A stretch of DNA of 64,000 nucleotides from a virus, in IMG/VR virus record IMGVR_UViG_3300005541_000007, positions 1 to 64,000 of that record; one strand, written 5' to 3'. The notes beneath the pieces are model-generated. The model saw nothing but the letters and a program-made list of their open reading frames with translations. It searched no databases and was not told the DNA's origin. The position numbers and the translations under genes are program-made. Shown here one piece after another: positions 40,034 to 42,528 of the stretch (the first letter of the stretch is position 1; each line of letters starts with the position of its first letter).

Positions 40034-40963
40034 TTGAGCGATACACTCAAAGGATATGCGTCTGCAACACAAGTAGCTAATTTTATGGGGATAGTCCCAA
40101 ATACAGCTAACTTAGCGCAAATAACAACATATCTTGGAGTAGCAGAAGAATTAGTAGAAAATTATTGTCAAACAACTTTCTTACAAGAAATTGGCGGTAA
40201 TACTTCCGATCTAGCATCAACTCAAGCTTCTGGTTGGTTAGTAGTAACATCAGCAACTTATACATTTCAACCAACAGATGTAGGACAATTTATTCGTATT
40301 GTATCAGGAACTAATTTTACTCCTGGGGTATATTTAATTGCTTCTGTAGCAGGAGGAAATGCAACACTTTCAACTGCGTGTGGAACTACTGGAAATGCAT
40401 CATCCGGTACATGGCATGAAAGTGTAAATAAGATTTTTAGTGGACATGGAAATACTACAATTTTCCCAGGTTTATATATTCAAGATGTACTTGCTATGAA
40501 TCTTCTTGATATTGATGGAGTATCAGTAATCTATACTTATATTATGAATACTGATATAACACTTAAACCAGATACACCATTAAAGATTGCAAGTACACCA
40601 GTTTATAGATGGATTGAAAGAAAATATTATAGCGGTGGAAGTTTTGGACAACAAGGCGGCGATCAATCAGGAGTAACACCGTATTCTGTAACTCCTATCT
40701 TTATTCAAGGTTCGCAAAATATTCAAGTATTTGGAGTGTGGGGATTACCACAAATTCCTGATACCATTGTTTACGCCATATGCGCCACTGTACAGAATAT
40801 GTTTAGGGCCATAGGAATTAATCCATTTATTAAATCAGAGGGCGCATACGGGCGTTCTGTGGTCTTTAATGATACAAATGATTTTGAAATGATTCCTCCA
40901 ATGGCTCAAAGACTCTTGGACCCTTGGGTGAACAAAGCGATCTTCAACACCGATGGATTTTAA
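40034..40963 (+). CDS. Head-tail adaptor (gp6/gp15-like) with inserted module
   Basis: YAS..QV..F..AEELVENYCQTTF...G.WG..IPDTIVYA...SE..YGRSV...LLDPW; ~70-aa insert at 40202-40420. Confidence 0.75.
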   Translation: MSDTLKGYASATQVANFMGIVPNTANLAQITTYLGVAEELVENYCQTTFLQEIGGNTSDLASTQASGWLVVTSATYTFQPTDVGQFIRIVSGTNFTPGVYLIASVAGGNATLSTACGTTGNASSGTWHESVNKIFSGHGNTTIFPGLYIQDVLAMNLLDIDGVSVIYTYIMNTDITLKPDTPLKIASTPVYRWIERKYYSGGSFGQQGGDQSGVTPYSVTPIFIQGSQNIQVFGVWGLPQIPDTIVYAICATVQNMFRAIGINPFIKSEGAYGRSVVFNDTNDFEMIPPMAQRLLDPWVNKAIFNTDGF

Positions 40964-40965
40964 AA

Positions 40966-41007
40966 ATGTCTGCTACACCTATTTTAACTTCATCAGGTTG
41001 GTTTTAG
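40966..41007 (+). pseudogene. Orphaned original 5' end (MSATPILTSSGWF*) of the 42097 gene
   Basis: 13-codon ORF matching MITPLLSTSSSWF at 42097; joins in frame to ENVTF if 41005-42135 is removed. Confidence 0.75.
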
Positions 41008-42135
41008 TATGATTAATTATCAACTTAAATTAAAACTTACTAAATATCAGGAACAACAATTAGAATCCTGGTTACCAATACTTACCTCTATTTGGAATTG
41101 GACTATAAGAAAAATTGAATTAGATGCTAAAGATAATATATATTATAATAGTAAATTTGATTTTGTAAATTTATTAGTAAATCATAGTGAAAAATTAGGA
41201 GTATCTAGTCATACTATGATGTGTACTACTATGACTGCATATAATTTATACCAACAATATATAAAGAAAAAATGTGGTAAACCTAAATTTAAAGGACAAA
41301 GAAATAAACTTAATAGTATTCTATTTCCAGATATTATTAAACAACCACAAAATAATAAAATACAATTACGAGTAATAGGTAAAATTAAGTATCATAAACA
41401 ACAAATACCTGAAGGTAATATTAAATGTGTAAGAATTATTAAAAAAGTAAGTGGTTGGTATGCAGTATTAACTATAGATACTAAACCTAAAAAAATATCT
41501 ATTATTAGTAATAATAAAGTAGGAATTGACCCAGGATTTAAACATTTACTTACACTATCTAATGGTGATAAAATTGAACATCCTCGTGAATTTGAAATTA
41601 ATGCGGAACGATTAGCACAAGCACAACGCGGGCATAATAAGAAACTTGCTGCTATAATTAATGAAAAAATTGCTAATCAACGAAAAAACAGAAATCACAA
41701 ACTCTCTAGAAAATTAGTAAGTGAAAATGAATTAATAGTTTTTAGTAAAGATAATCATAAAAATGTTGCTAAAAAATTTGGTAAATCTGTGTCCTCTTCA
41801 GGACATTATCAACTTCAAAAAATGTTAGAATACAAGTGTCGTACAGACGGTAGGCAATACATAGAAGTTGATTGTAAGTTTTCCACCATGACCTGCTCTA
41901 CCTGTAATGCTCGTACCGGGCCTACAGGTTGGGAAGGCTTGAAGGTAAGGAATTGGGAGTGTACAGAGTGTGGAACTTTACATGATAGAGACATAAATGC
42001 CGCTATCAATACGCTTAATTCCGGGCTTGGAATAAGCCACGAGAATACCGTGAAAACGGAAATACAGAAAACTAGTAATGAATGGGGTAATATTTAATGA
42101 TTACACCACTATTATCAACTAGTAGTTCATGGTTT
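41005..42135 (+). mobile_element. Transposase-less tnpB/omegaRNA cassette (IS200/IS605-derived)
   Basis: TGGTTT at both junctions; only tnpB inside; 3' hairpins ending TAGTTCAT resemble IS605 right ends. Confidence 0.7.
41009..42097 (+). CDS. tnpB: TnpB-family RNA-guided nuclease (RuvC-II Glu not at canonical position)
   Basis: N-terminal helical/WED region, KPKFK, GIDPG (RuvC-I), STMTCSTC..WECTECG Zn finger, HDRDINAA (RuvC-III). Confidence 0.92.
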   Translation: MINYQLKLKLTKYQEQQLESWLPILTSIWNWTIRKIELDAKDNIYYNSKFDFVNLLVNHSEKLGVSSHTMMCTTMTAYNLYQQYIKKKCGKPKFKGQRNKLNSILFPDIIKQPQNNKIQLRVIGKIKYHKQQIPEGNIKCVRIIKKVSGWYAVLTIDTKPKKISIISNNKVGIDPGFKHLLTLSNGDKIEHPREFEINAERLAQAQRGHNKKLAAIINEKIANQRKNRNHKLSRKLVSENELIVFSKDNHKNVAKKFGKSVSSSGHYQLQKMLEYKCRTDGRQYIEVDCKFSTMTCSTCNARTGPTGWEGLKVRNWECTECGTLHDRDINAAINTLNSGLGISHENTVKTEIQKTSNEWGNI

Positions 42136-42146
42136 GAAAATGTCAC
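42022..42146 (+). ncRNA. Predicted omegaRNA 3' part plus guide
   Basis: Hairpins GGCTT/AAGCC and CCGT-GAAA-ACGG, long stem 42071-42123, then AGTTCAT and putative guide GGTTTGAAAATGTCAC; 5' end not determinable. Confidence 0.55.
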
Positions 42147-42528
42147 TTTTAATGTAATAGATTTAGTGTACCAAGTTTTAGATATGCACAGTGTTCCGAG
42201 TAATACAGTTGTATACTCAGGGTTAGTAGGACATTTACAAAATGCACAATTTAGTAAAGAAGGGCAAGCAGATAAAGAAAGAAATAGAACTTCACCGTGG
42301 ATATTAACAGTAACTACTCAATATGATTTACAAATGGGACAATTTATAGTAATTACAAGTGTTAAGAATGCTTATGGTATGTGGATTGCTAGTACCCAAC
42401 CTTACGAACAATTCAAAGTAGATTTCCTCAACGCGTCATTTAGTAATTCAAACGAGAAAATTCTTAGATTATCGCGTAGGGATGCTGTGGCGAATACTAG
42501 TAACACTGCTGATGGAGTAATAAATTAA
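42097..42528 (+). CDS. Putative head-closure/head-completion protein
   Basis: Synteny between adaptor and neck/terminator genes; TAATG-coupled to tnpB. Confidence 0.55.
   Translation: MITPLLSTSSSWFENVTFNVIDLVYQVLDMHSVPSNTVVYSGLVGHLQNAQFSKEGQADKERNRTSPWILTVTTQYDLQMGQFIVITSVKNAYGMWIASTQPYEQFKVDFLNASFSNSNEKILRLSRRDAVANTSNTADGVIN

What the first reader, a model, noticed from the sequence alone, without database searches (positions are those of the whole stretch)
40966..42146. TnpB cassette that rebuilds the gene it disrupts: replacement N-terminus encoded inside the predicted omegaRNA
Seen: a 13-codon ORF just before tnpB reads MSATPILTSSGWF*. The gene after tnpB starts MITPLLSTSSSWF-ENVTF, a similar peptide on different DNA. 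TGGTTT occurs at both junctions (40999-41004, 42130-42135). Deleting the 1131 bp between them gives an in-frame MSATPILTSSGWFENVTF gene. The new ATG overlaps the tnpB stop (TAATG). It lies in the loop of a long hairpin (42071-42123) whose 3' arm is the replacement codons, and the hairpin is followed by AGTTCAT. There is no tnpA and essentially no left end. Known: TnpB omegaRNAs overlap the tnpB 3' end, finish at the element right end and use the flank as guide. Inference: the guide GGTTTGAAAATGTCAC would target cassette-free alleles (TAM near AGGTT). That would make this an RNA-guided homing element that stays neutral in a morphogenesis gene without splicing, because one sequence acts as RNA scaffold, coding sequence and coupled start.
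Basis: partly seen in the sequence, partly recalled or inferred. Interest (0 to 1): 0.92.

Follow-up and report, generated by a model that had tools for sequence, protein, structure and literature searches.

The report
TnpB cassette carrying replacement gene start
A transposase-less RNA-guided nuclease gene (tnpB) sits 13 codons inside a phage neck gene, and the tail of its guide RNA most likely also encodes a new start codon and a substitute first 13 codons, so the gene stays whole without splicing.

Summary
A 13-codon mini-ORF (40966-41007) is followed by an intact tnpB (41009-42097). The next gene starts at an ATG overlapping the tnpB stop and repeats the mini-ORF peptide on different DNA.

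I compared about 80 relatives. Their guide RNA (omegaRNA) has a covarying pseudoknot, an invariant TCA and a fixed 8-nt tail. In the window only one 3' end fits all three: TAGTTCAT ending at 42130.

Both peptide copies resemble natural N-termini of the gene family. The right copy is therefore a foreign allele carried by the cassette, not an invention.

The same phage has a GIY-YIG homing endonuclease with the identical old start / nuclease / new start layout. Fungal mitochondrial mobile ORFs do the mirror image at gene C-termini. Two relatives (L053, L068) also place the downstream start codon in the omegaRNA terminal loop. Unchecked notes of this scan describe similar TnpB start-patching in other phages.

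Homing itself is not shown. The family's target-adjacent motif (TAM) is TGAAC, not AGGTT, and no cassette-free allele could be fetched. I rate this a new variant of known kinds, of moderately high interest.

The parts
40034..40963 (+). Upstream gene A, a head-tail adaptor. It would serve as the left homology arm in any homing.
   Evidence: phrog_442 connector, E = 3.6e-13; ORF list.
40966..41007 (+). Copy A: a remnant of the resident gene start (MSATPILTSSGWF*). It now acts as a leader mini-ORF whose TAG stop lies 1 nt before the tnpB ATG.
   Evidence: It resembles the natural N-termini of P0002 and P0123.
40999..41004 (+). Left TGGTTT, the only block identical between copy A and copy B. GGTTT equals the first 5 nt of the guide.
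41009..42097 (+). tnpB, 362 aa. It keeps all 63 columns that are invariant in the family. GC is 22-30% against about 36% in the flanks.
42024..42038 (+). omegaRNA hairpin 0. Its loop GGAAT (42029-42033) is the 5' strand of the pseudoknot.
   Evidence: Aligned to A5 columns 41-55. The helix is 99.5% paired with covariation.
42048..42059 (+). Stem-loop 1 (CCGT/ACGG). In relatives this stem-loop covers the tnpB stop; here it is read through.
42065..42072 (+). CAGAAAAC, the counterpart of the conserved CAGGAATC motif. Its last C opens stem-loop 2.
42072..42122 (+). Enlarged terminal stem-loop 2. It is closed by C42072-G42122, and its loop holds the tnpB stop and the new ATG (TAATG, 42095-42099). 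Its 3' half encodes codons 2-9 of the rebuilt gene.
   Evidence: Fold. The position of the closing pair matches that in relatives.
42123..42130 (+). 8-nt scaffold tail TAGTTCAT. GTTC (42125-42128) pairs with GAAT (42030-42033) to form the pseudoknot. This is the right end of the element.
   Evidence: It matches 7 of 8 bases of the AAGTTCAT tails of L007 and L060.
42131..42150 (+). Predicted guide (GGTTTGAAAATGTCAC...). It also encodes codons 12-18 of gene B.
   Evidence: In relatives the guide starts immediately after the tail. The sequence is unique in the genome.
42097..42528 (+). Gene B, 143 aa, a neck or head-completion gene by its position. Its first 13 codons (42097-42135) are copy B.
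   Evidence: N15 and F18 are invariant in the family, so a start upstream of them is needed.

Best explanation
This is a tnpA-less, left-end-less IS200/IS605-family tnpB-omegaRNA cassette. It lives inside the 5' end of a phage neck gene in the manner of a mobile-ORF homing element.

The mobile unit is roughly 41005-42135. It comprises a stop codon, tnpB, the omegaRNA scaffold, and, inside the scaffold's enlarged terminal stem-loop and tail, a new ATG plus a foreign allele of the gene's first 13 codons.

The resident first 13 codons are pushed upstream. They survive as a leader mini-ORF. Translation is probably passed on by termination-reinitiation: mini-ORF to tnpB (TAG-N-ATG), then tnpB to gene B (TAATG).

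The omegaRNA ends at 42130, and its guide is the gene sequence across the insertion point. The carrier is immune for two reasons. The left copy holds only 5 nt of the target, and the right copy is preceded by the scaffold tail instead of a TAM.

The cassette most likely reached this phage, and may still spread, by double-strand-break repair between related co-infecting phages. The adaptor gene plus the native start would be the left arm, and the gene body the right arm.

Shown here: the anatomy, the scaffold boundary by comparative evidence, and the homology of both peptide copies to natural N-termini.
Inferred only: translational coupling, RNA processing, cleavage and homing.
For: - tnpB is intact and keeps all columns invariant in the family.
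- The right end and guide start of the family are fixed by multicopy bacterial elements.
- The tail pairs with the loop of hairpin 0: 96.8% of cells are paired, with 19 and 11 double-sided changes. TCA is invariant in 78 of 78 sequences.
- The window's loop GGAAT is identical to that of L007. Only the end at 42130 keeps TCA, the pseudoknot (GTTC/GAAT), a closing pair at the C of the CAGRAAWC motif and an 8-nt tail.
- Given this phage's codon usage, the codons AGT TCA for S10-S11 have probability 0.073. Together with ACT AGT of the closing stem the probability is 0.0075.
- Both peptide copies match the natural N-termini of P0002 and P0123 equally well. They share 8 of 12 residues but only 19 of 36 bases, which is the signature of two alleles.
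- Analogues validated by the same pseudoknot: L053 has the Shine-Dalgarno sequence (SD) GGAGG, the TAA stop and the ATG of a 482-aa ORF in the stem-loop 2 loop, and L068 has an ATG in that loop.
- Diverged host-sequence repeats flank other left-end-less cassettes: L024, L032, L054 and L068.
- The same genome has a GIY-YIG/NUMOD3 endonuclease with the same layout.
- Known parallel: fungal mitochondrial mobile ORFs that carry a foreign gene terminus, with 63.5% nucleotide against 91% amino-acid identity between the copies (PMC3630166).
- TnpB-driven homing that does not depend on TnpA is described in PMC13565253.
Against: - The family TAM is TGAAC. The reconstructed empty site has AGGTT, and a copy-B-type allele would have TTCAT. 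Cleavage of cassette-free alleles therefore requires a changed TAM specificity, which I did not test.
- No cassette-free or cassette-bearing relative of this phage could be fetched.
- Two covariance models built from relatives place the 3' end elsewhere: 42097 and 42118.
- The long hairpin is not an outlier among synonymous recodings, p = 0.15.
- The canonical RuvC-II glutamate is a serine in the whole family. Published work reads such sites as rearranged rather than dead, but does so from structure models (PMC10691335).
- There are no RNA data of any kind.
Confidence: 0.55

Rival explanations
1. A stranded passenger. An IS605-type element lost its left end and tnpA. It reached its present place by illegitimate or microhomology-mediated recombination between two diverged phages, with the junction in TGGTTT. 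It persists only because the arrangement happens to keep gene B expressed. TnpB does not home at this site. It may be idle, or it may act against competing phages.
For: - The TAM expected from the family (TGAAC) is absent at the reconstructed site.
- Up to 36 of 57 non-redundant viral relatives lack both tnpA and a recognisable left end, so stranding is common.
- The only exact identity between the two copies is the 6-bp TGGTTT, which is typical of a microhomology junction.
- The nearest TnpB anywhere is only about 62% identical, so there is no sign of recent spread.
Against: - tnpB and every conserved omegaRNA feature are intact, including the pseudoknot.
- The start-in-loop layout recurs in L053 and L068.
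- The same layout is seen with a bona fide homing endonuclease in the same genome.
- Two precise translational overlaps are unlikely from a random junction.
Confidence: 0.3
2. An ordinary insertion between a stop and a start codon. The omegaRNA scaffold ends at the tnpB stop (…GGGGTAATATTTAA, 42097) and has a degenerate terminal stem. Copy B is simply the gene's own 5' end and serves as the guide. The downstream hairpin and AGTTCAT are then chance products of AT-rich coding sequence.
For: - The sequence-dominated covariance model R1 aligns the model's end to 42097.
- ATTT(AA) can still pair with the GAAT loop through a T-G wobble.
- Given the peptide SSW, the codons AGT TCA occur by chance at 7%.
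- The synonymous recoding test is not significant.
Against: - This reading replaces the C of TCA, which is invariant in 78 of 78 relatives.
- It leaves no stem-loop 2, although that stem covaries in relatives.
- It leaves copy A, an intact natural-looking start with 13 codons, unexplained.
- L053, which could be read the same way, is settled by its pseudoknot in favour of the start-in-loop reading.
Confidence: 0.1
3. A domesticated, nuclease-dead TnpB of the TldR type. It would use its guide to bind, rather than cut, the start of gene B and so regulate late gene expression.
For: - The canonical RuvC-II glutamate is absent.
- The cassette is wired into the late operon, and its guide matches its own downstream gene.
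Against: - The same VFSKDN motif is invariant in mobile, multicopy relatives that carry tnpA and have clean ends.
- RuvC-I and RuvC-III aspartates and an invariant E286 are kept.
- Rearranged RuvC-II sites are read as active in PMC10691335.
Confidence: 0.05

Closest known systems
IS200/IS605-family TnpB with omegaRNA (OMEGA systems: ISDra2, IS608, tnpB-only IS1341 type; PDB 8EXA, 8H1J)
   Same: The protein has the same RuvC and zinc-finger architecture. The omegaRNA overlaps the tnpB 3' end and stops at the right end, with the flank serving as guide. The right end and pseudoknot match relatives that still have tnpA and transposon ends.
   Different: There is no tnpA and no left-end hairpin. 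No TGAAC lies at the junction, and the element is single-copy. It sits inside an ORF. Its terminal stem-loop is enlarged from about 20 nt to 51 nt and holds a stop codon, a start codon and 11 sense codons of the host gene. The cassette is flanked by a diverged duplication of host codons, which peel-and-paste transposition never produces.
Mobile ORFs (mORFs) of fungal mitochondria: free-standing LAGLIDADG or GIY-YIG endonuclease genes that carry a foreign gene C-terminus (Allomyces atp6; Glomus atp6, atp9, cox2, nad3; PMC3630166)
   Same: A nuclease ORF sits inside the end of an essential gene. The gene terminus is duplicated: one copy is in frame and in use, the other is a displaced native remnant. 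The copies have low DNA identity but high peptide identity. The arrangement is explained by homing with co-transfer of a foreign terminus.
   Different: Here the N-terminus is duplicated, not the C-terminus. The host is a phage, and the nuclease is RNA-guided. The transferred terminus overlaps the guide-RNA scaffold, so one stretch serves as both RNA structure and coding sequence.
Free-standing phage homing endonucleases and intronless homing (Seg and Mob of T4; reviewed in PMC13565253), including the GIY-YIG cassette of this same phage
   Same: A nuclease gene lies between or within conserved phage genes and spreads by break repair in co-infection with co-conversion of flanks. The GIY-YIG cassette at G000:74055-74890 has the same old start / nuclease / new start layout.
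   Different: Target choice would come from a guide RNA whose template is the flank itself. Self/non-self discrimination would depend on the insertion, not on sequence polymorphism.
IStrons (group I intron fused to an IS605-type TnpB element)
   Same: Both let a TnpB element sit inside a gene without destroying it.
   Different: No intron is present here and there is no Rfam match. The gene is kept whole at the level of translation by a second start and duplicated codons, not by RNA splicing.

Membership tests
IS200/IS605-family TnpB-omegaRNA element | TnpB protein with a split RuvC domain and a zinc ribbon | tested here: met
   Pfam PF07282 (1e-20) and PF01385 (9e-9). ISDra2 TnpB chains match at E = 9e-19. 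All 63 columns invariant in the family are kept.
IS200/IS605-family TnpB-omegaRNA element | Canonical RuvC D-E-D catalytic triad | tested here: inconclusive
   The D of GIDPG and the D of DRD are present. The RuvC-II Glu position is Ser (VFSKDN) in every family member, while E286 is invariant. Rearranged RuvC-II sites are described in PMC10691335. Activity was not tested.
IS200/IS605-family TnpB-omegaRNA element | omegaRNA scaffold overlapping the tnpB 3' end and finishing at the right end, followed directly by the guide | tested here: met
   The covariance model match has E = 3e-15 to 3e-18. The pseudoknot, the TCA and the 8-nt tail are satisfied only by an end at 42130. The models themselves place the end ambiguously.
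IS200/IS605-family TnpB-omegaRNA element | Left end with a subterminal hairpin next to the target motif (TAM; here TGAAC) | tested here: not met
   Only 4 nt separate host-like codons from the tnpB ATG. There is no GCGCAATCCC-type hairpin and no TGAAC.
IS200/IS605-family TnpB-omegaRNA element | Y1 transposase TnpA in the element or elsewhere in the genome | tested here: not met
   PF01797 was searched over the 80-kb genome with no match, and the search's controls were positive.
mORF-type homing cassette carrying a gene terminus | Nuclease ORF inside a gene end, flanked by two copies of that end with low DNA but high peptide similarity, one copy in frame with the gene body | tested here: met
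   8 of 12 residues against 19 of 36 bases, p = 0.0006. Copy B is contiguous with the gene body and copy A ends in TAG.
mORF-type homing cassette carrying a gene terminus | The in-frame terminus is foreign and the remnant is native, shown by comparison with relatives | not testable with these tools
   Only two close homologues exist, P0002 and P0123, as protein sequences. Their contigs could not be fetched. Both copies score alike against P0002, 81 and 83.
mORF-type homing cassette carrying a gene terminus | The nuclease cuts the cassette-free allele and the cassette is copied in | not testable with these tools
   This needs cleavage and cross experiments. The only public run holding the sequence is the source sample and is kept as contigs, which show no variant.
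IStron | Group I intron ribozyme around the element | tested here: not met
   No Rfam family matches 40800-42400 at E <= 1.

The most novel reading that the evidence does not exclude
Phages harbour an RNA-guided counterpart of mobile-ORF homing elements. These would be transposase-less TnpB cassettes that colonise the first codons of essential late genes. Their omegaRNA terminal stem-loop and tail double as the stop/start junction and the N-terminal coding sequence of the host gene, and their guide spans the insertion point. One stretch of sequence would then serve as RNA scaffold, coding sequence and translational coupler. The element would home between co-infecting phages without a transposase, an intron or a left end. 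The recurrence in L053 and L068, and in the sbcD cases noted earlier in this scan, would make it a class rather than a one-off.
Probability: 0.4. Interest if true: 0.8.

Novelty: new variant of a known kind. Interest (0 to 1): 0.62.

Why it matters
TnpB is usually discussed as a helper that restores IS605 transposons after TnpA excises them. This case has no transposase and no left end, yet the nuclease gene and guide RNA are fully conserved, and the cassette is built into an essential phage gene.

If it homes, three things follow:
- RNA-guided nucleases can live the life of free-standing homing endonucleases in viruses.
- There is a third way to be harmless inside a gene, beside introns and inteins: bring a spare copy of the gene end.
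- An omegaRNA scaffold tolerates a 30-nt coding insertion in its terminal loop, which is useful to know for engineering compact TnpB editors.

It also gives a simple search image for annotation: old start, nuclease, new start. Such loci are at present called as a hypothetical mini-ORF, a transposase and a hypothetical protein.

Tried and rejected
Searches for a cassette-free allele or any relative of this phage all came up empty:
- megablast and tblastn against 50,697 phage records;
- IMG/VR scans with gene A, gene B and a three-sequence gene B alignment;
- one JGI metagenome scan;
- The genome search does not draw relatives for a virus record.

The only close homologues are P0002 (69% identical, on a 2,294-bp JGI contig) and P0123 (51%, on a 739-bp ENA contig).

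Public reads: one run holds the stretch. It is the probable source sample and is kept as contigs, and it showed no alternative joint. This says nothing about whether variants exist.

A close relative of this TnpB was not found either. The best hit is about 62% identical.

Covariance models:
- R1 ends its alignment at 42097.
- R2 ends at 42118.
- I rejected 42118 because TATC cannot pair with the GAAT loop.
- I ranked 42097 low because it changes the invariant C and has no stem-loop 2.

Leads dropped as chance or as ordinary:
- ATTATCAACT occurs three times, and TTT(A/G)AAAATGTC occurs on both sides of the cassette. Twelve such repeat families are found in 1.35 kb of this AT-rich DNA.
- The direct repeat AACTAGTA..ATGG (42070 and 42117) could mark an old guide, but I could not tell it apart from the palindromic stem base.
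- L051 looked like another ORF starting in the scaffold. It is an ordinary insertion with a left end, and the lysozyme gene has its own TTG start.
- Cassette-free relatives of L068 and L053 were sought without result. A homologue of the L068 gene (P0129) gave no clear answer on the native N-terminus.

The consensus promoter scan was at chance level.
Full report
**What is there.** The window belongs to an 80,385-bp soil virus record with direct terminal repeats.
- Gene A (40034-40963) follows the major capsid gene and is a head-tail adaptor (phrog_442).
- Two bases after its stop comes a 13-codon ORF (40966-41007, MSATPILTSSGWF, stop TAG).
- One base later comes tnpB (41009-42097).
- The A of the tnpB TAA is the A of the ATG of gene B (42097-42528, MITPLLSTSSSWFENVTF...).
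- TGGTTT closes both 13-codon stretches.
- tnpB is a full-length IS605-type gene (Pfam; ISDra2 TnpB structures).
- It is single-copy in the genome and much more AT-rich than its surroundings: 22-30% against about 36% GC.
- The genome has no Y1 transposase.

**Anatomy of the family.** I collected 72 viral loci and 45 bacterial loci with TnpB relatives at 45-62% identity.
- Multicopy elements in single bacterial genomes fix the boundaries. The copies stay identical up to ...GGGGAGGTTCAA and then diverge.
- Four independent insertions in one genome all follow TGAAC, and so do the viral copies that still have a left-end hairpin. The family TAM is therefore TGAAC, and the guide starts right after the tail.
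- The 3' part of the omegaRNA is built as follows: a hairpin whose loop reads G-GNNN, then CACGAG, a stem-loop over the tnpB stop, the motif CAGGAATC whose last C opens a second stem-loop, and an 8-nt tail ending NNTCA(A/T/G).
- A covariation scan showed that the two variable tail bases pair with the loop of the first hairpin.
- On alignment A5 this pseudoknot is 96.8% paired, with 19 and 11 sequences changed on both sides. The slid controls fall to about 40-50% paired.
- TCA is invariant in 78 of 78 sequences.
- The closing pairs of the second stem also covary.

**Where the window's omegaRNA ends.** Three ends were possible.
- A sequence-dominated covariance model chose 42097.
- A model with the stem added chose 42118.
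- The window's first hairpin and its loop GGAAT (42029-42033) are identical to those of L007. The tail must therefore read (A/G)TTC before A.
- An end at 42118 (TATC) cannot pair with that loop.
- An end at 42097 (ATTT) pairs only with a wobble, changes the invariant C and has no second stem.
- An end at 42130 gives GTTC-A-T. Its closing pair C42072-G42122 starts exactly at the last C of CAGAAAAC, and its tail TAGTTCAT is 8 nt long and matches 7 of 8 bases of the tails of L007 and L060.

I put about 80% on this end. It follows that the guide starts at 42131 (GGTTTGAAAATGTCAC). The terminal stem-loop is enlarged to 51 nt. Its loop carries TAATG, and its 3' arm and tail are codons 2-11 and the first base of codon 12 of gene B.

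Codon choice agrees with this. Given the phage's codon usage, AGT TCA for the two serines has probability 0.073, and 0.0075 together with the ACT AGT of the closing stem. The whole hairpin, however, is not an outlier among synonymous recodings (p = 0.15), so the case rests on the specific conserved features and not on overall stability.

**The two peptide copies.**
- Gene B has only five detectable relatives among 1.8 billion representative proteins.
- P0002 starts MAATPLIQTSSSWFENVTF and P0123 starts MAITSLIPITDFFNNIIF. N15 and F18 are invariant, so the gene needs a start upstream of them.
- Copy A and copy B match P0002 equally well, with scores of 81 and 83. They match each other at 8 of 12 residues but only 19 of 36 bases, with serine codons switched between TCA and AGT.
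- A remnant drifting neutrally to that DNA distance would not keep its ATG, its open frame and its natural-looking peptide.
- The simplest reading is two alleles from two phage lineages. Copy A is the resident start, orphaned recently. Copy B arrived with the cassette.

**The layout recurs.**
- In L053 the loop of a canonical CCCC/GGGG terminal stem contains GGAGG, the tnpB TAA and the ATG of a 482-aa ORF. Its tail GTGCTCAG pairs with its own loop GGAGC, which settles the reading.
- In L068 an ATG in the same loop opens a 288-aa frame, and a mini-ORF plus a 12-nt repeat lie upstream.
- L024, L032 and L054 carry diverged repeats of host sequence, 26-48 nt long, on both sides of cassettes that lack a left end. 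In L032 the repeat covers the last 16 codons of the upstream gene.
- Up to 36 of 57 non-redundant viral relatives have neither tnpA nor a recognisable left end.
A GIY-YIG/NUMOD3 endonuclease (Pfam) is preceded by a 51-codon mini-ORF. The first 32 residues of that mini-ORF are colinear with the start of the gene after the nuclease (score 49 against 25 +/- 4.8). The new ATG and an AAGGAG lie inside the nuclease's 3' end.
- Two unrelated nucleases with one layout point to a common route: break repair with a transferred gene end.
- That route is known at the other end of genes. Fungal mitochondrial mobile ORFs carry a foreign C-terminus and leave the native one as a remnant, with 63.5% DNA but 91% peptide identity between the copies (PMC3630166).
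- Other unchecked notes of this scan describe TnpB right ends that supply the start of a phage sbcD gene.

**How it most likely works.**
- Ribosomes start at the native site, stop at TAG and restart at the tnpB ATG one base on.
- They stop at TAA and restart at the overlapping ATG of gene B.
- The omegaRNA is cut from the same transcript.
- In a co-infection, a cassette-free allele presents the guide's full match across the insertion point.
- A break there would be repaired from the carrier. The adaptor gene plus the native start would be one arm and the gene body the other. This copies in the cassette and its foreign 13 codons and leaves the recipient's own start as the new remnant.
- The carrier is safe because the left copy has only GGTTT of the target and the right copy follows the scaffold tail.
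- All of this is inference from anatomy, from TnpB homing as reviewed in PMC13565253 and from the mobile-ORF precedent.

**What speaks against it.**
- The bases before the target would be AGGTT in the resident type or TTCAT in the copy-B type, not the family's TGAAC.
- I could not fetch any empty or filled relative.
- No TnpB closer than about 62% identity exists in 5.8 billion proteins, so recent spread is not visible.
- The family lacks the canonical RuvC-II glutamate. That trait is shared with mobile relatives and is described as a rearranged active site (PMC10691335).
- There are no RNA data.
- I therefore give 0.55 to the homing-cassette reading, 0.30 to a stranded passenger with the same anatomy, 0.10 to an ordinary stop/start insertion that ends at 42097, and 0.05 to a dead regulator.

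**Verdict.** This is a new variant of two known kinds: the TnpB/omegaRNA element and the mobile ORF that carries a gene terminus. The overlap of guide-RNA scaffold and host coding sequence is the new feature.

Noticed in passing
G000:C1:74055-74890 (L120:1056-1890), beyond the window's end: A GIY-YIG + NUMOD3 homing endonuclease has the same layout. A 51-codon mini-ORF repeats the first 32 residues of the downstream gene. The nuclease start overlaps the end of the mini-ORF. The new ATG, with AAGGAG upstream, lies inside the nuclease's 3' end.
   Followed up: yes
L015:4093-4130 compared with L017:3358-3385: Two nearly identical phage loci carry the same TnpB element. They differ only in the 25-35 nt directly after the right end, which is the guide position, and then converge again at TAATGGCTACCGC. 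This could be guide-segment replacement between close relatives.
   Followed up: no
L032:2930-3000 and L032:4090-4140: The last 16 codons of the upstream gene (…YSMDMIIFDCQKVEK*) recur after the right end as …YSLDMMIYTCQKVEI*. The second copy is read in the tnpB frame and ends at a TGA that overlaps the next gene's ATG. This mirrors the window's N-terminal duplication at a C-terminus.
   Followed up: partly
L036:2873-3004, L040, L052/L069:2849-3004: A small ribbon-helix-helix-like ORF (MKRTN.FFP...RRAV.A.LK) overlaps the tnpB start in several left-end-less viral loci. It may be the Arc-type repressor named in the abstract of the 2026 preprint 10.64898/2026.09.24.754181. L047 and L053 share a different small basic ORF in the same place.
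   Followed up: no
window 41738-41755 (TnpB residues about 244-249): The canonical RuvC-II glutamate is a serine (VFSKDN) in this TnpB and in all 28 aligned relatives, while E286 is invariant. This fits the rearranged RuvC-II clades of PMC10691335.
   Followed up: partly
window 42070-42085 and 42117-42132: A direct repeat AACTAGTA(ATGA/GTTC)ATGG lies 47 nt apart in the same codon phase. The TnpB tail …KTSNEWG thus echoes gene B …STSSSWF. It contains the palindrome ACTAGT that forms the base of the hairpin. Its origin is unexplained.
   Followed up: partly
protein P0003 / P0127: The exact TnpB and gene B proteins are also on record from a 109,570-bp contig. A longer assembly of this phage therefore exists in public data, while CheckV rates the 80-kb record as 73% complete.
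   Followed up: no
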